A stretch of 31,892 nt of DNA from positions 1 through 31,892 of the IMG/VR virus record IMGVR_UViG_2654587686_000018. One strand, written 5' to 3'. The position numbers were made by a program, and so were the translations under genes. This DNA comes from a virus. Lineage: Duplodnaviria; Heunggongvirae; Uroviricota; Caudoviricetes. Below the pieces are notes generated by a model. The model did no database searches. It saw nothing but the letters and a program-made list of their open reading frames with translations, and was not told the origin of the DNA. Shown piece by piece: positions 13,676-27,185 of this stretch (the stretch's first letter is position 1; every line of letters begins with the position of its first letter).

Positions 13676-14379
13676 TTGCCGGTGGTGAGCTGAATAAAAA
13701 ACAGCTGGCAGAGTTGCGTAAATCACTGGCCAGCATGGAGCTGCCGCCCAAAAAGCGCCAGCGTCTTATCTGGAGGCTGGCCAAATATGGCGTGATTGCT
13801 GCCGCAAAACGGCACGTTCGCAATCAGGAAGCACCGGATGGCCAGAAGTGGCCGGGGCGTAAAACGAAGCGCAAAGGGAAGATGCTGCGGAACCTGCCAA
13901 AACTGCTGCATATCCGTGAAATGCCAGAAATTCAGGCGGTACGGATTTATTTGCAGGGTGGTGGCTACCGGAACGGGGAAACGCCGTTACCGGCCGGGAC
14001 AGTCGGATATGCGCAACAAAACGGGATGCGCGTCAGTGTCAGCCGTCGCAGTCAGCCACGGAAGGTGGAGGCCGGAAAAATGGCCATGCCAGCCCAGGCC
14101 AAAAAACTGCGGGCGCTGGGGTACCGGGTACGCACCGGTAAACGCTGGAAAAAGCCCACGCTGGGCGAGTTAACCCAAACGATGCCATACAGCCGGGCGG
14201 GGCTACTGATTCGAAAACTCAGCGGTAAAGCGGTGAAAACCAGCTGGACAGTGGATCTTCCTGCCCGTGTATTTCTGGGCATGAGTGACGATGAATTTGA
14301 TAACGCGCTGGCGCGTCAGCTTCAGGCCATCGGCTTTGGCTGGGATGTTAAGGCGCAGGATATTAAGGGGAAAGCATGA
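13672..14379 (+). CDS. putative virion morphogenesis protein
   Basis: 235-aa basic protein, coupled to flanking genes; assignment by position only. Confidence 0.45.
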   Translation: MIAGGELNKKQLAELRKSLASMELPPKKRQRLIWRLAKYGVIAAAKRHVRNQEAPDGQKWPGRKTKRKGKMLRNLPKLLHIREMPEIQAVRIYLQGGGYRNGETPLPAGTVGYAQQNGMRVSVSRRSQPRKVEAGKMAMPAQAKKLRALGYRVRTGKRWKKPTLGELTQTMPYSRAGLLIRKLSGKAVKTSWTVDLPARVFLGMSDDEFDNALARQLQAIGFGWDVKAQDIKGKA

Positions 14380-15503
14380 CCTGGCCAAACGTGACCGTGA
14401 ACCAGGTAAACCAGCTGCTGGGTGAAACCAATGAAGTGGAACGCACGCTGCTGTTTATCGGTACGGGTACCAAAAATGTGGGGAAAACGCTGGCGGTGAA
14501 TGCCCAGAGTGATTTTGATGCACTTCTGGGAGAAGGGGAAAGCCCACTGAAAAGCGATGTTCTGGCGGCACTGGCAAACGCCGGTCAGAACTGGTGGGCA
14601 TTTATTCATGTGCTGCCCGCAGATGCTGAGGACGATGCCTGGGTGAAAGCGGTTCTGGCTGCACAGGTGGTGTGTTCGGTGGAAGGGGTAGTGCTGTCCA
14701 GTGATGTGACGGCCAAAGCCCAGGTGAATCAGGCTGCGACGTTACGATCCACGCTGATTTCCAAATATGGGCGCTGGGTGTGGTTCATCCTGGCCGTGCA
14801 GGGAATGCAGGAAGAAGAAGCCCTGGCGGATTACCTGACCCGTGTGTCTGCCATCCAGGACGGGATTGCAGAGAAGGCGGTGCAGCTGGTCCCGCGTCTG
14901 TGGGGAAATGAGCCGGGTGTGCTGGCTGGCCGTCTGTGCAGTCGTGCCGTGACTATCGCAGACAGTCCCGCCCGTGTGAAAACCGGGGCGCTGCTGAATC
15001 TGGGCAGTGATGAAATGCCGGTTGATGGTACTGGGGCAGTACTGGAGCTGGCCACACTTCAGGCACTGGAAGCGCAGCGTTTTAGTGTACCGATGTGGTA
15101 CCCGGATTATGACGGCTTTTACTGGGCTGACGGGCGAACGCTGGATGTGGAAGGCGGCGATTATCAGTCTATTGAAACCCTGCGTGTTGCCGATAAAGCG
15201 GCGCGTCGTGTACGTCTGCTGGCTATCAGCAAAATTGCGGATCGCTCACTGAACAGCACACCGGGCAGCATCGCTGCACACCAGACGTTGTTTGCACGTC
15301 CACTGCGTGAAATGTCCACAGCGGCCAGTATCAATGGCGTGTCATTTCCGGGGGAAGTGAAGCCGCCGCAGGACGGTGACGTGACCATTGTCTGGAAGAA
15401 CAAAAAGACGGTGGATATTTATCTGGTGGTACGCACCTGGGAAGTTCCGCTGCAAATCACCATCAGTCTGTTACTGGATGCCAGTCTGGAGGGCGCTGCA
15501 TGA
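14376..15503 (+). CDS. putative tail sheath-like structural protein
   Basis: 375 aa, first large gene of the tail block, followed by a tube-sized gene. Not P2 FI-like by sequence. Confidence 0.45.
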   Translation: MTWPNVTVNQVNQLLGETNEVERTLLFIGTGTKNVGKTLAVNAQSDFDALLGEGESPLKSDVLAALANAGQNWWAFIHVLPADAEDDAWVKAVLAAQVVCSVEGVVLSSDVTAKAQVNQAATLRSTLISKYGRWVWFILAVQGMQEEEALADYLTRVSAIQDGIAEKAVQLVPRLWGNEPGVLAGRLCSRAVTIADSPARVKTGALLNLGSDEMPVDGTGAVLELATLQALEAQRFSVPMWYPDYDGFYWADGRTLDVEGGDYQSIETLRVADKAARRVRLLAISKIADRSLNSTPGSIAAHQTLFARPLREMSTAASINGVSFPGEVKPPQDGDVTIVWKNKKTVDIYLVVRTWEVPLQITISLLLDASLEGAA

Positions 15504-15955
15504 GTAAACGTATTTCGGGTATGTCGTTTGATACCTATCTTGATGGCGATCTGATCCATATCGAGAAAATCACACTCGATATCACGGATAACAGCGCCGC
15601 CGCCCAGACCCGTGGTGTGCCGGATGGCCATGTTGATGGTGATGTGGCCGCAGAGGGAGAAATTGAAGTCAGTTCCAAAGTGCTGGGCGTACTGACGGCT
15701 AAAGCCCGCGCCGCAGGTTCGTGGCGTGGTATTCCGCCGCTGGATTTTCTTTTCTATGCCAAAGCGGGCAGCGAAGAAATGAAAGTGGAATCGTTCGGTA
15801 ACAAACTCCAGCTGAGTAATCTGCTGGATATCGATCCAAAGGGCGGCGGTGTGGCGACGCACAAAATCAAATATTTTGTGACCAGTCCCAAGTTCGTGAA
15901 CATCAACGGTGTGCCGTATCTGGAAGCGGAAGCCACGGAAAACCTGATCGGATAA
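15500..15955 (+). CDS. putative tail tube-like protein
   Basis: 151 aa immediately after the sheath-like gene with overlapping start. Confidence 0.45.
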   Translation: MSKRISGMSFDTYLDGDLIHIEKITLDITDNSAAAQTRGVPDGHVDGDVAAEGEIEVSSKVLGVLTAKARAAGSWRGIPPLDFLFYAKAGSEEMKVESFGNKLQLSNLLDIDPKGGGVATHKIKYFVTSPKFVNINGVPYLEAEATENLIG

Positions 15956-15965
15956 GGAAGCCGGA

Positions 15966-16268
15966 ATGCAGGAACATGAAAAGAGCCTTTATTCACTGCT
16001 GATTATGGGGGCGCTCATTGCTGTTGCGAAGGTGCTGGCCAGTGATGATCCCATTACACCGCGCCTGTTTATCAGCCGTGTGATCCTGGGCAGTTTTGTT
16101 TCAGTCATCGCTGGCGCGGTGCTGATTCAAATCCCGGAGGCCAGCCCGCTGGCAATTCAGGGACTGGGGGCAGCGCTGGGTATTGCAGGTTATCAGGCTG
16201 TTGAAATGTGGCTGCGCAGACGTGCAGCGGGAAAGAAGAACGGGAGCGTGACAAATGACCCTGAGTGA
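15966..16268 (+). CDS. holin
   Basis: 100 aa with three hydrophobic segments and a charged C-terminus (RRRAAGKKNG); directly precedes the endolysin. Confidence 0.65.
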   Translation: MQEHEKSLYSLLIMGALIAVAKVLASDDPITPRLFISRVILGSFVSVIAGAVLIQIPEASPLAIQGLGAALGIAGYQAVEMWLRRRAAGKKNGSVTNDPE

Positions 16269-16596
16269 AAAGCAGCAGCTGTTTACCGTCATGGTGGCCA
16301 ACCTGATCCACTGGGCAGAAGAACGCGGCTACCGGCTGACGTTTGGTGAAGCGTACCGCACCCCGGAACAGGCGGCGCTGAACGCGAAGAAGGGCAGCGG
16401 TATTTCGAACAGTCTGCACACCCAGCGTCTGGCCGTGGATTTTAACCTGTTTGTGAATGGCCAGTACCAGACCCGTACAGAGGACTATCTGCCGCTGGGT
16501 GAATACTGGGAATCACTGGGCGGAAGCTGGGGTGGGCGCTTCAAATCCAGACCGGATGGTAATCATTTCAGCCTGGAACATAACGGGGTGCGCTGA
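16255..16596 (+). CDS. endolysin, peptidase M15-type (zinc D-Ala-D-Ala carboxypeptidase fold)
   Basis: 113 aa with SLHTQRLAVDFNLF (H-x6-D) and a C-terminal HFSLEH motif typical of M15 peptidase endolysins. Confidence 0.8.
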   Translation: MTLSEKQQLFTVMVANLIHWAEERGYRLTFGEAYRTPEQAALNAKKGSGISNSLHTQRLAVDFNLFVNGQYQTRTEDYLPLGEYWESLGGSWGGRFKSRPDGNHFSLEHNGVR

Positions 16597-16976
16597 TGAG
16601 TCACGCGCAGTGGCTGGTTGTGGTGGCGCTGGCGTTTGTCTGGGGCTGGCTGACAGCTGACTGGCGGCGCGACAGTCTGGAGCTGGCAATCAATACGGCG
16701 GCGCAGGTGGCGGGTAATGAATCGCGAAAGGCTATGCAGGGCATTGCCAGTGATTCCGCCAGGGAGCTGGAAGATAAACTGGAGGCGCTAAGAAATGCGC
16801 AACCGCGAGAGATCCGCACGGAAGTGCTTAAGCCGGTTTTTACTAACAGGTGCCTGTCTGATGAGTTTGTCAGCATGTACAACAGCGCCGTCGCCGGTAC
16901 CGAACGTGCGTTATCAGGAAAACCTGAAAACACGATGCGCCACGCAGCTGCCGCGCCTGAACGGGGCAACAGGTAA
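16596..16976 (+). CDS. i-spanin (Rz-like)
   Basis: N-terminal hydrophobic anchor (WLVVVALAFVWGWL) followed by a charged, helical periplasmic domain; position after the endolysin. Confidence 0.65.
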   Translation: MSHAQWLVVVALAFVWGWLTADWRRDSLELAINTAAQVAGNESRKAMQGIASDSARELEDKLEALRNAQPREIRTEVLKPVFTNRCLSDEFVSMYNSAVAGTERALSGKPENTMRHAAAAPERGNR

Positions 16977-17094
16977 AGATGCAGCGGAACTGCTGACTGT
17001 TTACCTTGAAATATATGGCCAGTGTGCGGCGCGTCATAATCAATTAGTTGATGAAATTAATTTAAGAGAGCGTGTTATTTATGGAACAAATTAA
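16795..17094 (+). CDS. o-spanin (Rz1-like outer-membrane lipoprotein), overlapped architecture
   Basis: +1-frame ORF starting inside the i-spanin gene. Signal peptide ending in lipobox LSAC. Runs past the i-spanin stop. Confidence 0.55.
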   Translation: MRNRERSARKCLSRFLLTGACLMSLSACTTAPSPVPNVRYQENLKTRCATQLPRLNGATGKDAAELLTVYLEIYGQCAARHNQLVDEINLRERVIYGTN

Positions 17095-17338
17095 ACTGAG
17101 TGTCTGTGGGGTTGATATTGTTTTTGAACCTAATCAGACTGCTTATAATAAACTGATTAATGAAATGGCAATGGATAATAAAGTTGCCCCTGCAAATAAT
17201 TATCTGATGCGTATTGTTACCCCAGAAACGAAAGAAGCACTGATTGACGTATTAAAACGTCCGGGTGCAGCACTGCAACTGGTCAGTAAGGTTAATGATA
17301 TTTACGCGCCGGAACTGGAGATTGAAGTAAAAAACTGA
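17072..17338 (+). CDS. tail assembly chaperone (0-frame product, gpE/G-like)
   Basis: 88-aa ORF immediately upstream of the tape measure gene; ends just after a slippery heptamer. Confidence 0.6.
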   Translation: MLFMEQIKLSVCGVDIVFEPNQTAYNKLINEMAMDNKVAPANNYLMRIVTPETKEALIDVLKRPGAALQLVSKVNDIYAPELEIEVKN

Positions 17339-17529
17339 CAAAGCGAGTCCATGATATTGAACGAAATGGACTCGAACAGTATTTAATTCTCCGTCGTCAT
17401 TATTTACCACATGGTCAGGATTCTGTTGACGATATTGCTGCCGCTATATGGCTGGATAACCGTCACTGGGAATATACGGGAATAGCCGTGGCTAATGGCG
17501 TGGCTAAAGCATTTAAAGGCACTGAATGA
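17072..17529 (+). CDS. tail assembly chaperone -1 frameshift fusion product (gpE+E' / G-T-like)
   Basis: Slippery heptamer A_AAA_AAC at 17329-17335 is in register with the 0-frame codons. The -1 frame is closed by TGA at 17323-17325 just upstream and open from 17335 to a stop at 17527-17529, which overlaps the tape measure ATG. That frame contains no ATG. Confidence 0.55.
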
Positions 17530-19586
17530 AACAGTTAGATTTTACATTAAGCCTTATTGATAAATTGTCCCGCCCGTTAAAACAGGCGCAGGGCAACGTA
17601 ACGGGCTTTGCTGAAAAATCAAAAGAAGCCTTTATGCAGATTGGTGGCGGCGTTCTGGCGCTGGCGGGTACAGGGATGGCCATTAAAGGTGCGCTGATGC
17701 CCGCCATTGAAATGTATGACGCGCTGAATGATGCGGCTGCAAAAGGGATCGATGATTCTGCGCTTAAGGCCGTTCAGCGTGATGCGCTGCGCTTCAGTAC
17801 AACCTACGGTGCCAGTGCGGTGGAGTTCGTCCAGTCCACGGAAAGTATAAATGCGTCCATTGCCGGGCTGACCGGGAATGAACTGCCGAAAGTGACGAAA
17901 GTCGCCAATACCCTGGCGTTTGCGCTCAAATCCACCGCAGCGGAAACCGCTGAGTTTATGGGGCAGATGTTCGGTAACTTCTCCGCCGATGCCAACCGGC
18001 TGGGAAAGGTTGAGTTTGCTGAACAGCTGGCCGGAAAAATGGTGTACATGCGCAAAACCTTTGGCACGGAAATGGCCGCTATCAAGGATTTGATGGAAGG
18101 GGCGCGCGGTGTGGGTACCAACTACGGCGTGGGGCTGGATGAACAGCTGGCCGTGCTGGGACAGCTTCAGCGGACACTGGGAACGGAAGCCAGCAGCGCT
18201 TATGAAGGCTTTATGACCGGAGCCATTGAGGGCGGTAAAAAGCTGGGGCTGTCCTTCACGGATTCCACCGGCAAAATGCTGTCCATGCCTGAAATGCTGA
18301 TCAAGTTACAGGGCAAGTATGGCAAAAGCCTGGAAGGGAATCTGAAAGCCCAGGCTGAACTGGATGCGGCATTTGGTGACAGTTCGGCGGTGGTGAAACA
18401 CCTTTATGGCAATGTGGCGCTGCTTCAGCGCAATATCACAGAACTGGGCAGTACTGATGGTCTGAAGCGTACCCAGGAAATGGCGCAGAAAATGGTGAAG
18501 CCGTGGGATCGGTTTGTCGCAATCCTGAAGGCTATCCAGACCGTCATTGGACTGACGCTGATCCCGGTGCTCTATCCGGTTCTGAACCGACTGGCCGATA
18601 TGGGGCAGACTTTTGCCCGCTGGATGCAGCTATTTCCCAACATTGCGCGTGTTGTTGGTTATGCGGCAATGGCCTTACTCAGCTTTGCGGCTGTGGGCGC
18701 AGTCGCCAACATCGTGATGGGTGTCTCCAGATTCATCATGATGGGGTTGCGTGGGATCTGGGTGGCGCTGACGGCTGTCACGAAGGTTCACACCGCTGCT
18801 GTCTGGCTGGGGAACATTGCCGTGGTTGCCTGGAACGCCACGCTGAAATTTCTGCGCGGTACGTTGCTGGCGGTTCGTATGGCGGCAATGATGGCCGGGA
18901 TAGGTATCAATCTGATGAGCTGGCCGATCCTGCTGGTGATTGGTGCCGTTGCCTTACTTGCTGCCGGTTGCTGGCTGCTGATTAAACACTGGGACACGGT
19001 AAAGAACGCGGTCATGGATACCGCTGCATTTCAGACATGCGCCAGGGGGGTGGCATGGCTTGCCGGGGTGTTTGCTTCAGCCTGGCAGTTTATCAGCGAA
19101 GGCTGGAACAGTTTTATTTCCATGCTGACCGGGTTTTCTCCTTCCCAGGCATTAAGCGGGCTGGCCACGGGCATTGTGTCATTGTTTGATAATGTCTGGT
19201 TGTCCGTTAAAAACGGCTTTCTGAAATCATGGAACTGGATTGTAAGTAAATTAAATAACATTCCGGGTGTTGATATTGAACTGGCGGGTGCGGCTTCACC
19301 GGATATCGCTAAAAATGAAGCGGCAGTATTTCCAGTGCCGGAATTGAAGCAATCAGCGAAAGCTGACGGTGCTCTTGCTGCGGTGACACAAAATAATTAC
19401 GCCCCAGACCGGCTTTTAACCGGAGGCGAATTAAAAGGCATTGAAAAGGGCGGGATCACCAAAACGATTAACAGTAATGCCAAATCCGTAACCGACAATA
19501 GCCGGAAAATTGACACGGTAAACATTTATCCGAAAGAAATGATTACACCCGGTCAGTTAATGGAATTTCAGGAGCTGGGCGCATGA
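17526..19586 (+). CDS. tail tape measure protein
   Basis: 686 aa, alanine/glycine-rich with a central hydrophobic block; follows the chaperone frameshift pair. Confidence 0.85.
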   Translation: MKQLDFTLSLIDKLSRPLKQAQGNVTGFAEKSKEAFMQIGGGVLALAGTGMAIKGALMPAIEMYDALNDAAAKGIDDSALKAVQRDALRFSTTYGASAVEFVQSTESINASIAGLTGNELPKVTKVANTLAFALKSTAAETAEFMGQMFGNFSADANRLGKVEFAEQLAGKMVYMRKTFGTEMAAIKDLMEGARGVGTNYGVGLDEQLAVLGQLQRTLGTEASSAYEGFMTGAIEGGKKLGLSFTDSTGKMLSMPEMLIKLQGKYGKSLEGNLKAQAELDAAFGDSSAVVKHLYGNVALLQRNITELGSTDGLKRTQEMAQKMVKPWDRFVAILKAIQTVIGLTLIPVLYPVLNRLADMGQTFARWMQLFPNIARVVGYAAMALLSFAAVGAVANIVMGVSRFIMMGLRGIWVALTAVTKVHTAAVWLGNIAVVAWNATLKFLRGTLLAVRMAAMMAGIGINLMSWPILLVIGAVALLAAGCWLLIKHWDTVKNAVMDTAAFQTCARGVAWLAGVFASAWQFISEGWNSFISMLTGFSPSQALSGLATGIVSLFDNVWLSVKNGFLKSWNWIVSKLNNIPGVDIELAGAASPDIAKNEAAVFPVPELKQSAKADGALAAVTQNNYAPDRLLTGGELKGIEKGGITKTINSNAKSVTDNSRKIDTVNIYPKEMITPGQLMEFQELGA

Positions 19587-24965: not shown

Positions 24966-25482
24966 TGGTGAGGCTATCCAGCTGAAAAATATGCGCGTGA
25001 CCGTCTCGCAGCAGTTTCAGGATAAAGACCAGTCCGGCCAGACAAGTGCCACAACCAAATCAGAACAGGGGGCAAAAGGGAAAGAGCTGCGTATCAGTGG
25101 CGAAATTCCGTTTAAAAGCCCGGAGATCCTGAAGCGTATTTTCGAACTGGCCAGCGCCACGGATGCCGGAGGCAACCGCCAGAAATACCGCGTGGCGCAT
25201 GAAGTGGCCAGAGCCGTGAATTTTCGTGAGGCGACATTCAGCGGAATGCTTGATGCCCCGCAGCAGGACGGGAAAATGGCCTGGCTGGTCACGTTTACGC
25301 TGGCAGAACATATCAGCGTGCAGGAAAAGCGGGAAGCCAGGGCAACAGGCAAAACGTCTGCCAAAAAACAGACGGCCGGTAATGCGGGACAATCCGGTGG
25401 CCAGAGTGCCGGGGAAGATGAAGAAAAACTGACGTGGTTTGAAAAACGGGTACTGAAACCCGTCAATGATGCTTTGGGTTAA
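24937..25482 (+). CDS. hypothetical tail-associated protein
   Basis: 181 aa, start overlaps the previous gene, SD (aaaggga) upstream. Confidence 0.45.
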   Translation: MTSIPTLALNGEAIQLKNMRVTVSQQFQDKDQSGQTSATTKSEQGAKGKELRISGEIPFKSPEILKRIFELASATDAGGNRQKYRVAHEVARAVNFREATFSGMLDAPQQDGKMAWLVTFTLAEHISVQEKREARATGKTSAKKQTAGNAGQSGGQSAGEDEEKLTWFEKRVLKPVNDALG

Positions 25483-27185
25483 TGATGAAACCAGTTAAAC
25501 GCCTGTACCTTTCAACGGATGAAGTTCACCTGGCGGATGCCAGCCTGGTGCTGGAGCTGAACAGCTGCGGCCGGGGATTTATCACTGTACAGACAGCCAC
25601 GGATTACACCGGGAAACTGGTGCGGCTGGATGTGGGGTATTCCGATCTGCTTTTGCGCTGGTTTACTGGTTATGTGGAACGCTCACAACCCGCCGAAAAC
25701 GGTTTTCAGCGTCTGTTTGTGCGCGAGCTGGTCGGCGTGTTTGAAAGGATGTGGCCATGTTCATTTCAGCACCCCACTTTGCGCAAGGTAGCCAGCTGGC
25801 TGGAGGAAAACAGCGGAATTGCTGTCAGTGTGCCGGATGCCCCTTACAGCGATAAACCGATCCCCCATTTCACCCACAACGGCACAGGCTATCAGTTGCT
25901 GAATAATCTGGGCAGGGCGTTCAGTATCCCGGATTACATCTGGTACCAGCTGCCGGATGGTTCCCTGCATGTGGGCGGCGCGGAAAAAGCGATGTTTGCC
26001 GGTCGCCCGGTCGATATCCCGGCAGAGTTTAGCCTGGGGGCGGCTGGCGGTAATTCCATGACGCTGCCGGTGATCCAGAGTCTGCGGCCGGGTGTGGAGC
26101 TGAACGGGGAGCGTGTGACCAAAGTTCATCTGACCAATGACACAATGGCTGTTACCTGGACACCCAGAAACCGTGCAACAGGTCAGCCATTACAGAAAAC
26201 ACCTGCACAGCGCCAGATTGAAAGCAATTACCCGGAACTGGCTTCCGGGCTGCATCTGCCAAAACTGGCCAGAGTGGTGGCACCCAGCGAGGCTGTGAAA
26301 AGTGGTAATTTTGCCGATCCGTTCCGGCCGCGCTATGCCGTTGATGTGCAGCTGCTTGATGCAGACGGCAACCCGGACAACCAGACACCGGTTTATTCTG
26401 CGGTGCCGCTGCCGGTACCTATGGCCGGGAATGACTCTGGCATGTTCCAGTTCCCGCCAGAAGGGACGCTGGTTGAAGTGGCGTTTACCGGAGGTCGCCC
26501 GGATAAACCGTTTATCAGGCAGACGTTGCCAGATGGTACCAGTCTGCCGGATGTTAAACCCGGCGAGCAGCTGCAACAGCAACGGGCGGAAGTGTCGCAA
26601 CGTGTTACCCAGGCTGGCGATTGGGTACGGCAGACCGATCAGACCATCAGCGAAACATCGATGGCGCGGACGGTTAAAGCCGATACGGAACAGCGTGATT
26701 TGGTCAGCCGTGAAACCACGGTTAAAGCCACCGACAAAACCACGGTTCTGGGTACCGCCACCCTGTTGGCCGGTGCCATCCAGCAGGTCAGCGCCGGGGA
26801 TTTTAGCCAGGCCGTGAAGGGCAACAGACTGGCCAGCATTGAAGGCAATGACGAAACCGATATTTCCGGGAAACAGTCCACTAAGGTGGCCGGAGCCGTG
26901 GATGTTGATGTGGGGGGAACCCTGACTGAAAAGATTGCTGCATTACGTAAATCGGTGGCGGCGGGCGGTCAGCAGATTATGGGACCAACCGTCCATATTG
27001 GCAGTGAGAGCGTCAACACGCTGACTATGATGCTGGACACTATTGATTTACTGGCCGAGCTGGCGCAGCAGTGTGCGAGCCATTCACACCCCAGTGTTGG
27101 TACGCCAACCAATGCCGGGGCATTCACACAGACGGCGGAGAAGGCCGGACAGACCCGAAGTAAGTACCAGAAAATAATCGCCTGA
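25482..27185 (+). CDS. baseplate central spike protein (gpV / gp5 / VgrG-like OB fold) with C-terminal extension
   Basis: FPPEGTLVEVAFTGGRPDKPFI matches the spike OB-fold motif (FxPxxGxxVxVxFxxGxxDxPxI). C-terminal HSHP is reminiscent of the HxH tip of P2 gpV. Confidence 0.5.
   Translation: MMKPVKRLYLSTDEVHLADASLVLELNSCGRGFITVQTATDYTGKLVRLDVGYSDLLLRWFTGYVERSQPAENGFQRLFVRELVGVFERMWPCSFQHPTLRKVASWLEENSGIAVSVPDAPYSDKPIPHFTHNGTGYQLLNNLGRAFSIPDYIWYQLPDGSLHVGGAEKAMFAGRPVDIPAEFSLGAAGGNSMTLPVIQSLRPGVELNGERVTKVHLTNDTMAVTWTPRNRATGQPLQKTPAQRQIESNYPELASGLHLPKLARVVAPSEAVKSGNFADPFRPRYAVDVQLLDADGNPDNQTPVYSAVPLPVPMAGNDSGMFQFPPEGTLVEVAFTGGRPDKPFIRQTLPDGTSLPDVKPGEQLQQQRAEVSQRVTQAGDWVRQTDQTISETSMARTVKADTEQRDLVSRETTVKATDKTTVLGTATLLAGAIQQVSAGDFSQAVKGNRLASIEGNDETDISGKQSTKVAGAVDVDVGGTLTEKIAALRKSVAAGGQQIMGPTVHIGSESVNTLTMMLDTIDLLAELAQQCASHSHPSVGTPTNAGAFTQTAEKAGQTRSKYQKIIA

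What the first reader, a model, noticed from the sequence alone, without database searches (positions are those of the whole stretch)
17323..17529. Programmed -1 ribosomal frameshift site in the tail assembly chaperone gene
The heptamer A_AAA_AAC at 17329-17335 is in register with the chaperone frame, one codon before its stop. The -1 frame is closed by TGA at 17323-17325 immediately upstream and then stays open for 64 codons to a stop at 17527-17529 that overlaps the tape measure ATG. That frame has no ATG of its own. This is the hallmark of the conserved chaperone frameshift of tailed phages (lambda G/GT, P2 E/E').
Basis: partly seen in the sequence, partly recalled or inferred. Interest (0 to 1): 0.5.

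Follow-up and report, generated by a model that had tools for sequence, protein, structure and literature searches.

The report
Tail chaperone -1 frameshift site
This is a genuine but ordinary example of the programmed ribosomal slip that tailed phages use to make a short and a long version of their tail assembly chaperone; its only added value is that it explains a small "unknown function" protein family (DUF6890) that genome annotators wrongly list as a separate gene.

Summary

Across 114 unique relatives, including HP1, the heptamer is invariant and in register, even at sites synonymous in both frames. The -1 ORF never carries a stop and shows pN/pS 0.29, against 1.1-1.6 in the other frames. 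Selection already acts on the 17 codons upstream of the ATT that PGAP uses as a "start".

A -1 ribosomal frameshift giving a 149-aa fusion is therefore strongly supported (about 0.9). An 8-bp hairpin 8 nt downstream is conserved with compensatory changes in the Enterobacteriaceae clade, but it is not family-wide and not unusually stable.

A_AAA_AAC is a weak heptamer in E. coli, so the fusion should be a minor product.

The phenomenon is well known (lambda G/GT, P2 E/E+E'). One distant homologue is already annotated with the frameshift. Most databases instead list the extension as stand-alone "DUF6890". Verdict: new member of a known kind, low interest.

The parts
17081..17338 (+). Tail assembly chaperone gene (0 frame), 85 aa from ATG 17081. 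The mechanical ORF from GTG 17072 would give 88 aa.
17329..17335 (+). Slippery heptamer A_AAA_AAC in 0-frame register (GT[A AAA AAC]).
   Evidence: AAAAAAC in 113 of 114 unique relatives and AAAAAAA in one. The preceding codon varies GTA/CTA/ATA but always keeps its third-base A. Same site in HP1, K139 and phiO18P; A_AAA_AAA in yong1 and ACA2; A_AAA_AAG in phi3.
17336..17338 (+). 0-frame stop codon (TGA) directly 3' of the heptamer. Possible pause element.
   Evidence: A stop abuts the heptamer in all 114 unique Enterobacterales relatives (TGA/TAA/TAG) and in HP1, K139, phiO18P and yong1. It does not in phi3 or ACA2. Any role in stimulation is inference.
17323..17325 (+). TGA that closes the -1 frame upstream. 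Together with the 0-frame stop it confines any shift to 17326-17338.
   Evidence: Not conserved in relatives, where the overlap is 10-154 nt.
17335..17529 (+). -1 frame extension: 64 codons plus TGA. It has no initiation codon of its own and corresponds to Pfam DUF6890 / PHROG 7050. Predicted fusion CDS: join(17081..17335,17335..17529), 149 aa.
   Evidence: Pfam PF21830, E 3e-24. PHROG 7050. Entropy by codon position 0.54/0.38/1.20; pN/pS 0.29 against 1.08 and 1.59 in the other frames; no stop in 114 sequences. The first 17 codons alone give pN/pS 0.40, and there is no conserved start.
17344..17374 (+). Candidate stimulatory hairpin. 8-bp core 17344-17351 / 17367-17374, with a 9th pair 17352:17366 in the window's subclade. 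13-15 nt loop; begins 8 nt after the heptamer.
   Evidence: MFE -14 kcal/mol. RNAalifold finds the same helix. 92.5% of cells paired against 8-39% when slid. One pair is AU 28 / GC 24 / GU 1 / unpaired 0; a second pair is GC 51 / AU 2. About 4 independent AU<->GC switches on an NJ tree. Only modestly more stable than the locus background, and absent or different in distant clades.
17316..17320 (+). Invariant UGGA, which is UGGAG (SD-like GGAG) in the window. It ends 8 nt upstream of the heptamer. Function unproven.
   Evidence: TGGA is invariant in 114 unique sequences. The Leu codon's third base is G in 119/119, against 89/119 at each of two control Leu codons. Full GGAG occurs in only 16/114. 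The motif is absent in HP1, K139 and yong1.
17526..19586 (+). Tail tape measure protein gene. Its ATG overlaps the stop of the -1 extension (ATGA).
   Evidence: Pfam PF10145, E 1e-22. PHROG 28 tail length tape measure protein. PGAP annotation.

Best explanation
A small fraction of ribosomes translating the chaperone mRNA slip back one nucleotide on A_AAA_AAC (17329-17335). This happens at the last two sense codons, just before or while the 0-frame stop TGA (17336-38) occupies the A site. Those ribosomes then read CTG ACA AAG ... in the -1 frame up to TGA 17527-29.

Two proteins with the same N-terminus result:
- an abundant 85-aa chaperone;
- a minor 149-aa fusion carrying a 64-residue helical extension, which databases call DUF6890.

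By analogy with lambda gpG/gpGT and P2 gpE/gpE+E', both would bind the tape measure protein encoded immediately downstream. The extension would recruit the tube protein so that the tail polymerises to the right length. Neither protein would stay in the virion.

Shown here: the sequence geometry, conservation of the heptamer at nucleotide level, protein-level selection on the -1 frame from the slip site onward, absence of an own start, and the chaperone fold.

Inferred: that the shift is ribosomal, its efficiency (probably about 1% or less to a few per cent, because A_AAA_AAC is a weak motif in E. coli), stimulation by the adjacent stop, the 8-bp hairpin and the upstream GGAG, and the molecular role of the extension.
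For: Geometry:
-. The shift is confined to 17326-17338, which is essentially the heptamer.

Gene identities:
- PF10963, PF21830 and PF10145.
- Tail-assembly-chaperone fold.

Conservation of the slip site in 114 unique sequences from 55 genome loci, 80 viral loci, annotated records and the window:
- The first six bases are A in all 114. The seventh is C in 113 and A in one.
- The motif sits at the same position.
- This includes three sites that are synonymous in the 0 frame: 17329, 17332 and 17335.
- 17335 is synonymous in both frames (AAC/AAT for Asn; CTG/TTG for Leu) yet is never T.

Selection on the -1 frame:
- pN/pS 0.29, against 1.08 and 1.59 in the other frames; no stops.
- pN/pS 0.40 for the 17 codons lying between the slip site and PGAP's ATT start.
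- That ATT is replaced by ACN or GCA in 16 of 114 sequences.
- The first canonical start codon falls at scattered positions or is absent.

Wider family:
- The two-frame tblastn match persists in HP1, HP2, K139, phiO18P, F108, and Vibrio, Pseudomonas and Pseudoalteromonas phages.
- The homologous V-K-(N/K) slip site is retained in these.
- The ACA2 homologue is annotated with a programmed frameshift.
- The P2 reference case has the same layout.

Precedent and function:
- A_AAA_AAC is a proven -1 site in IS1 and gives 0.16-0.74% in E. coli reporters (PMC4066793).
- A low fusion level fits the 30:1 G:GT ratio of lambda (PMC5009743).
- ESSI2_ev phages, 87-88% identical here and with the same site, were isolated as infectious coliphages (PMC6969025). 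The module is therefore functional.
Against: - No protein or reporter data exist for this lineage.
- The heptamer is intrinsically weak in E. coli and barely responds to stimulators in reporter assays, so the fusion may be very rare.
- The hairpin is not exceptionally stable: a median 25% of background windows are at least as stable. It is not shared by distant relatives.
- Full GGAG is restricted to the window's subclade.
- There is no sequence similarity to P2 E, so the functional assignment of the extension is by analogy only.
- The extension models with low confidence (pLDDT 66).
Confidence: 0.9

Rival explanations
1. The fusion is made, but through transcriptional slippage. RNA polymerase adds one extra A in the A6 run, so that normally translating ribosomes read the -1 frame.
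For: The site is a homopolymeric A run (17329-17334). Relatives yong1 and ACA2 have A7. Transcriptional slippage is used by some IS elements and type III secretion genes (PMC5009743). Sequence analysis alone cannot fully separate the two routes.
Against: The run is only 6 A. From general knowledge, productive bacterial slippage sites usually have 8-9 or more identical bases. The run never expands in 114 relatives, apart from one A7. Its register relative to the reading frame is invariant, and the flanking Z base is fixed although synonymous in both frames. Those features matter for tRNA re-pairing, not for polymerase slippage. Pseudomonas phi3 has A_AAA_AAG, the best ribosomal motif in E. coli.
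Confidence: 0.05
2. The -1 ORF is an independent small gene (the 'DUF6890 family protein' of PGAP). It would be initiated at a non-canonical codon such as ATT 17386 or CTG 17335, with no frameshift.
For: RefSeq annotates a separate 47-aa CDS starting at ATT. Databases hold 37 stand-alone DUF6890 clusters. Pfam and PHROGs model it as its own family.
Against: - The annotated N-termini are inconsistent, from 45 to 71 aa, all starting at non-ATG codons.
- The ATT is not conserved; it is ACN or GCA in 16 of 114 sequences.
- No canonical start occupies a conserved position.
- The 17 codons upstream of the ATT are themselves under purifying selection in the -1 frame (pN/pS 0.40), with invariant Arg and near-invariant Gln.
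- Conservation begins exactly at the heptamer.
- No AGGAGG-type Shine-Dalgarno sequence is apparent by eye in the bases just upstream of 17386.
Confidence: 0.03
3. The -1 ORF is not expressed at all. The open frame and heptamer are by-products of composition or of constraints from the neighbouring genes.
For: 64 open codons is not very rare on its own: 25% of heptamers in the window have at least 64 open -1 codons. The heptamer encodes the conserved C-terminal residues V-K-N.
Against: No other gene overlaps 17339-17525, so nothing else explains the following observations. There is a period-3 substitution pattern. pN/pS is 0.29 and no stop occurs in 114 diverged sequences. Homology reaches HP1 and Pseudomonas phages at 32-47% identity. 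Three sites of the heptamer that are synonymous in the 0 frame are invariant.
Confidence: 0.01

Closest known systems
Phage P2 gpE / gpE+E' (-1 frameshift in the FETUD tail operon; Peduoviridae)
   Same: - Same virus family and a contractile tail.
- A chaperone of about 90 aa directly upstream of the tape measure gene.
[quoted passage not shown]
- An extension of about 50-64 aa without its own start, ending in overlap with the tape-measure start.
- From memory of PGAP output (not checked here), the E' part of P2-like prophages is likewise often called as a separate small protein.
   Different: - Different heptamer: T_TTT_TTG, 18 nt before the stop in P2, against A_AAA_AAC abutting the stop here.
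- No significant sequence similarity (BLASTP E 0.09). The Pfam families also differ: only PF10963 and PF21830 matched here, and no P2 family.
- Here a lysis cassette separates the tube gene from the chaperone gene.
- P2 frameshifting is about 10% (Christie et al. 2002, from memory). The review states it is 2-3 fold higher than lambda (PMC5009743).
- This motif is expected to be weaker.
- No downstream hairpin is reported for P2 (PMC3091744). A conserved one is present here.
Phage lambda gpG / gpGT
   Different: Lambda is a siphovirus and uses G_GGA_AAG. Similarity to lambda G/T was not tested here. The extension's binding partner would be a contractile-tail tube protein, not gpV.
Haemophilus phage HP1 orf26 and homologues (HP2, K139, phiO18P, F108; Pseudoalteromonas phage ACA2 gp36/36a)
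   Same: True homologues of both parts, at 32-58% identity over the two-frame match. HP1, K139 and phiO18P have the identical A_AAA_AAC plus stop arrangement. ACA2 is deposited with a joined CDS, 'tail assembly chaperone with programmed frameshift'.
   Different: Most of these records leave the extension unannotated or as a hypothetical small ORF. ACA2 and phi3 have A_AAA_AAA or A_AAA_AAG, with the 0-frame stop 21 nt further on. K139's upstream ORF is 192 aa, and only its extension matched the query.
IS1 insA-insB' -1 frameshift
   Same: Same heptamer, A_AAA_AAC. It is a proven low-level -1 frameshift in E. coli without an established stimulator (PMC4066793).
   Different: A transposase, not a phage tail protein. 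The genes are unrelated.

Membership tests
Conserved tail-assembly-chaperone -1 frameshift of tailed phages (lambda G/GT, P2 E/E+E' type) | Two overlapping ORFs located between the major tail/tube gene and the tape measure gene | tested here: met
   Tube gene 15500-15955 (PF10772), chaperone 17081-17338, extension to 17529, tape measure 17526-19586. A holin/endolysin/Rz/Rz1 cassette sits between the tube and chaperone genes, as in HP1-type phages.
Conserved tail-assembly-chaperone -1 frameshift of tailed phages (lambda G/GT, P2 E/E+E' type) | The downstream ORF is in the -1 frame and lacks its own translation start | tested here: met
   No ATG/GTG/TTG before 17488. No start at a conserved position in 114 relatives. 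Selection extends upstream of every proposed start.
Conserved tail-assembly-chaperone -1 frameshift of tailed phages (lambda G/GT, P2 E/E+E' type) | X_XXY_YYZ slippery sequence in register within the overlap, conserved among relatives | tested here: met
   A_AAA_AAC at 17329-35 is the only heptamer in the 13-nt overlap. It is invariant in 113/114 unique relatives and in HP1, K139 and phiO18P.
Conserved tail-assembly-chaperone -1 frameshift of tailed phages (lambda G/GT, P2 E/E+E' type) | The upstream ORF is a tail assembly chaperone (TAC fold) | tested here: met
   [not shown]
Conserved tail-assembly-chaperone -1 frameshift of tailed phages (lambda G/GT, P2 E/E+E' type) | The fusion protein is actually produced at a low fixed ratio and is required for tail assembly | not testable with these tools
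   Needs mass spectrometry, western blot, reporter assays and genetics. Only indirect support is available, from purifying selection on the -1 frame.
P2 gpE / gpE' sequence families | Detectable sequence homology to P2 E and E' | tested here: not met
   BLASTP against P2 gpE gives E 0.09 over 28 residues. A Pfam scan at E<=0.1 returned only PF10963 and PF21830. The P2 E' part was not compared directly. The locus works like P2 E/E+E' but is not a member of its sequence families.
Pfam PF10963 (Phage_TAC_10) + PF21830 (DUF6890) | Score above Pfam gathering threshold | tested here: met
   117 bits against a cut-off of 25.7, and 84.8 bits against a cut-off of 23.6.
-1 PRF signals with a downstream stimulatory RNA structure (IS3 / dnaX type) | A stable stem-loop or pseudoknot starting 5-9 nt after the heptamer, conserved with covariation | tested here: inconclusive
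   An 8-bp helix starts 8 nt downstream. It is conserved in 53 Enterobacteriaceae-clade sequences with about 4 independent AU<->GC switches. Its stability is unexceptional. It is not conserved outside the clade. There is no Rfam match. The motif responds poorly to stimulators in reporters.
-1 PRF signals with an upstream Shine-Dalgarno-like stimulator (dnaX type) | SD-like sequence 6-17 nt upstream of the motif, conserved | tested here: inconclusive
   GGAG at 17317-20, 8 nt upstream. UGGA is invariant, but the fourth base is G in only 16/114. The motif is absent in HP1, K139 and yong1.
Programmed transcriptional slippage | A long homopolymer run (typically 8-9 nt or more) whose length, not reading register, is conserved | tested here: not met
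   The run is A6. The register is invariant, the length does not expand, and the flanking C is fixed. The length criterion comes from general knowledge.

The most novel reading that the evidence does not exclude
HP1-type phages retain the intrinsically weak, stimulator-insensitive A_AAA_AAC placed directly against the 0-frame stop codon. The Z base is fixed even though it is synonymous in both frames. This arrangement may define a termination-coupled -1 slip. In that model, Asn-tRNA in the P site re-pairs while the ribosome waits for a release factor. The chaperone:fusion ratio would then be set by release-factor activity and stop-codon context, not by an RNA structure. That would couple tail assembly stoichiometry to host translation state.
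Probability: 0.12. Interest if true: 0.5.

Novelty: new member of a known kind. Interest (0 to 1): 0.22.

Why it matters
Biologically this is an expected feature of a tailed-phage tail module and adds no new principle.

Practically, it resolves a recurrent mis-annotation. Pfam DUF6890 and PHROG 7050 are labelled "unknown function". The many RefSeq "DUF6890 family protein" CDSs start at ATT, CTG or other odd codons. None of these is an independent gene: all are the frameshift-encoded C-terminal extension of the PF10963 tail assembly chaperone in HP1/ESSI-2-type Peduoviridae. Correct joined annotation would improve prophage and phage-therapy genome annotation and frameshift training sets.

The family also offers a naturally conserved example of the weak A_AAA_AAC motif abutting a stop codon, with a lineage-specific hairpin. 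That could serve as a test case for how bacteria tune very low frameshift ratios.

Tried and rejected
- **Independent initiation of the -1 ORF (PGAP's ATT start).** Rejected. The start is not conserved, database N-termini are inconsistent, and selection extends upstream to the heptamer.
- **Chance open frame.** Rejected by pN/pS and the absence of stops in 114 sequences.
- **Other heptamer/ORF junctions in the window.** None is a frameshift candidate.
  - 8085 lies opposite genes on the minus strand.
  - 25473 precedes an ORF with its own ATG at 25482.
  - 31593 lies in an ORF with its own GTG start.
- **Fusion proteins in the 5.8-billion-protein database.** None were found. All chaperone hits cover only the chaperone part, and most are 85-86 aa. 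All extension hits are 45-71 aa with PF21830 only.
- **NCBIfam.** No model for either part.
- **PDB sequence search with the chaperone profile.** Only spurious hits.
- **Rfam.** Nothing in 17200-17600.
- **Thermodynamics of the downstream segment.**
  - The z-scores against shuffles were not significant (-0.73 and -0.95).
  - Comparison with the locus background showed only a modest excess.
  - Evidence for the hairpin therefore rests on position and covariation.
- **AlphaFold of the extension.** It gave a low-confidence helical model (pLDDT 66), so no fold search was run on it.
- **Literature.**
  - Xu et al. 2004 and Christie et al. 2002 are not in the library, so I could not verify whether they already list HP1 orf26.
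  - Full-text searches for DUF6890 and for HP1 with tail-chaperone frameshift terms found nothing relevant.

Full report
**1. What is in the sequence**

The chaperone frame reads ...GAG ATT GAA GTA AAA AAC TGA.
- AAAAAAC at 17329-17335 is therefore in A_AAA_AAC register, and the 0-frame stop (17336-38) abuts it.
- The -1 frame has TGA at 17323-25. It is then open for 64 codons, from CTG 17335 to GAA 17524-26.
- It ends at TGA 17527-29, inside the ATGA that starts the tape-measure gene (ATG 17526).
- The -1 ORF contains no ATG, and no GTG or TTG before 17488.
- Any change of frame must therefore happen within 17326-17338, which is essentially the heptamer.
- The likely start of the chaperone is ATG 17081 (85 aa), not GTG 17072 (88 aa). 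That matches PGAP and most of the 120 database homologues.
- The geometry alone is weak evidence. AAAAAAC occurs 9 times on the + strand, and a quarter of all XXXYYYZ sites have at least 64 open -1 codons.
- This is nonetheless the only site in the window with a stop right after the motif, a -1 frame closed one codon upstream, and a long downstream ORF lacking its own start.

**2. What the genes are**

Pfam assigns the following:

| Coordinates | Assignment |
|---|---|
| 14376-15503 | DUF2586 (annotated as tail sheath in the related phage ESSI2_ev015) |
| 15500-15955 | HP1 Orf24 tube protein |
| 15966-16268 | holin |
| 16255-16596 | M15 endolysin |
| 16795-17094 | Rz1-like LysC |
| 17081-17338 | PF10963 Phage_TAC_10 (E 4e-34) |
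| start-less -1 peptide | PF21830 DUF6890 (E 3e-24) |
| 17526-19586 | tape measure |

- The DNA is 97-99% identical to a few E. coli chromosomes.
- It is 81-88% identical to the infectious coliphages ESSI2_ev015/040/129/239 (Peduoviridae, Quadragintavirus) and 77% to Cronobacter phage ESSI-2.
- The ESSI2_ev phages were isolated as plaque-forming temperate coliphages (PMC6969025).

**3. Comparative evidence**

I collected 55 genome loci and 80 viral loci encoding relatives of the chaperone.
- The 114 unique sequences span Escherichia, Salmonella, Enterobacter, Yersinia, Serratia, Xenorhabdus, Photorhabdus, Providencia, Morganella and Arsenophonus.
- In these, the first six positions of the heptamer are A in all 114. 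The seventh is C in 113 and A in one.
- The motif always lies immediately before the stop.
- The preceding codon changes amino acid (GTA/CTA/ATA) but always keeps its third-base A.
- The Z base 17335 is synonymous in both frames (AAC/AAT; CTG/TTG), yet it is never T.
- Downstream, nucleotide variability has the period-3 signature of the -1 frame: entropy 0.54/0.38/1.20 by codon position, the same as in the upstream gene.
- pN/pS is 0.29 in the -1 frame, against 1.08 and 1.59 in the other two frames.
- The -1 frame has no stop in any sequence. The 0 frame has at least 1 stop and the +1 frame at least 3.
- The 17 codons between the heptamer and the ATT that PGAP uses as a start are themselves selected (pN/pS 0.40).
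- That ATT is replaced by ACN or GCA in 16 sequences. The first canonical start falls at scattered positions or is missing.
- A tblastn search with the conceptual fusion finds the same two-frame arrangement in 65 phage records. These include HP1, HP2, phiO18P, F108, and Vibrio, Pseudoalteromonas and Pseudomonas phages, down to 32% identity.
- HP1, K139 and phiO18P carry GTA/CTA AAA AAC plus a stop. Vibrio yong1 and ACA2 have A_AAA_AAA, and Pseudomonas phi3 has A_AAA_AAG.

**4. How databases treat it**

- RefSeq/PGAP annotates a separate 47-aa 'DUF6890 family protein' starting at ATT.
- Phage RefSeq records leave the gap empty or call a hypothetical small ORF.
- Among 5.8 billion proteins, no hit fuses the two parts.
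  - The chaperone hits cover only the chaperone part, and most are 85-86 aa.
  - The 37 DUF6890 clusters are 45-71 aa with arbitrary non-ATG N-termini.
- PHROG 7050 is likewise a 47-residue family of 'unknown function'.
- Only Pseudoalteromonas phage ACA2 carries a joined CDS noted 'tail assembly chaperone with programmed frameshift'.
- The P2 reference record annotates E and E+E' with a -1 shift.

**5. Mechanism**

The best-supported reading is -1 ribosomal frameshifting on A_AAA_AAC.
- This heptamer is the proven IS1 site.
- In E. coli reporters it gives 0.16% alone, 0.19% with the IS911 stimulators and 0.74% with the IS3 pseudoknot. A_AAA_AAG reaches 39% with the pseudoknot (PMC4066793 Table S3).
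- The fusion should therefore be a minor species. This fits the need for a low GT:G ratio in lambda, about 1:30 (PMC5009743).

Three candidate modulators were examined.

(a) *The abutting stop codon.*
- It is conserved in all Enterobacterales relatives and in HP1, K139, phiO18P and yong1, but not in phi3 or ACA2.
- A slow-to-decode A site is known to favour shifting (PMC5009743).
- A role here is inference.

(b) *A hairpin 8 nt downstream.*
- The core is 17344-51 / 17367-74, at -14 kcal/mol.
- RNAalifold recovers it.
- In 53 sequences chosen by clade, 92.5% of cells pair, against 8-39% for slid controls.
- One pair is AU 28 / GC 24 / GU 1 with none unpaired. Another shows a GC to AU double change.
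- An NJ tree implies about four independent switches.
- The segment is only modestly more stable than the locus background.
- Distant clades have different hairpins (Xenorhabdus, Ewingella) or none (Providencia, Photorhabdus).
- Rfam has no match.

(c) *An upstream SD-like motif.*
- In the window it is UGGAG at 17316-20.
- UGGA is invariant, including a Leu third base that is G in 119/119, against 89/119 at control codons.
- Full GGAG is confined to the window's subclade.

**6. Rivals**

- *Transcriptional slippage.* Disfavoured by the short A6 run, the invariant register and the fixed Z base. It cannot be excluded without RNA data.
- *Independent initiation.* Contradicted by the comparative data.
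- *A non-expressed ORF.* Also contradicted by the comparative data.

**7. Comparison with known systems**

- Functionally and architecturally this is the conserved tail-chaperone frameshift (lambda G/GT; P2 E/E+E').
- It is not a sequence relative of P2 E. Its true homologues are the HP1 orf26 group.
- The role of the extension is inferred by analogy. In lambda the T domain binds the major tail protein.
- The extension models as low-confidence helices.

**8. Verdict**

- The feature is a new, largely unannotated member of a well-known class. Interest is low.
- The useful by-product is that DUF6890 / PHROG 7050 can be re-labelled as the frameshift extension of PF10963 chaperones.

Noticed in passing
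L001:1987-2130 (equivalent to window 17386-17529); proteins P0121-P0157: RefSeq 'DUF6890 family protein' entries are 45-71 aa with arbitrary non-ATG starts (ATT, the CTG right after the heptamer, and others). Pfam DUF6890 and PHROG 7050 model only the C-terminal 44-47 residues. They are fragments of the frameshift extension, not independent genes.
   Followed up: yes
window 15966-17094: A complete lysis cassette sits between the tail tube gene and the chaperone gene. This is the HP1-type order and differs from P2. The cassette comprises holin 15966-16268, M15 endolysin 16255-16596, an Rz-like ORF 16596-16976, and an overlapping Rz1/LysC-like ORF ending at 17094, which overlaps the chaperone start.
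   Followed up: partly
window 17316-17320: UGGA is invariant in all Enterobacterales relatives, including a Leu third base that is G in 119/119 against 89/119 at control Leu codons. It reads GGAG (SD-like) in the window, 8 nt before the heptamer, but GGAA in most relatives. It is absent in HP1, K139 and yong1. The cause of the constraint is unexplained.
   Followed up: partly
L031-L036, L043, L044, L057 (Xenorhabdus); L019-L023 (Ewingella/Rahnella and relatives); L047, L050 (Providencia): Distant clades replace the window's hairpin. Xenorhabdus has an 11-bp GGGUUAAGGCU/AGCCUUAACUU helix about 9 nt after the motif. Ewingella-type loci have a GGCGCG/CGCGCC helix about 4 nt after it. Providencia and Photorhabdus show no notable structure.
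   Followed up: partly
[not shown]
   Followed up: partly
L144 (Vibrio phage K139 orf30): The upstream ORF is 192 aa, and only the extension part matched the query fusion in tblastn. It ends in the same CTA AAA AAC TAA slip site followed by a homologous extension. This suggests module exchange upstream of a conserved slip site and extension.
   Followed up: no
L004 (JAEWTL010000126.1, 'Bacillota bacterium' MAG), L039 ('Bacillales bacterium' MAG): Contigs labelled as Firmicutes MAGs carry enterobacterial-type versions of this prophage locus (87% and 56% chaperone identity). They are probably mis-binned contigs.
   Followed up: no
window 25473-25485; 8085; 31593: Other heptamers next to long -1 ORFs are ordinary. 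T_TTG_GGT plus TAA at 25473 precedes a gene with its own ATG at 25482. 8085 lies opposite minus-strand genes. 31593 lies in an ORF with its own GTG start.
   Followed up: yes
L012, L018, L054-L056, L058, L092: These related loci did not match my motif filter and were left out of the statistics. L054 has a 256-nt match, not a multiple of three, and L055/L056 (Sodalis endosymbiont) match only residues 1-48. These may be degraded copies.
   Followed up: no
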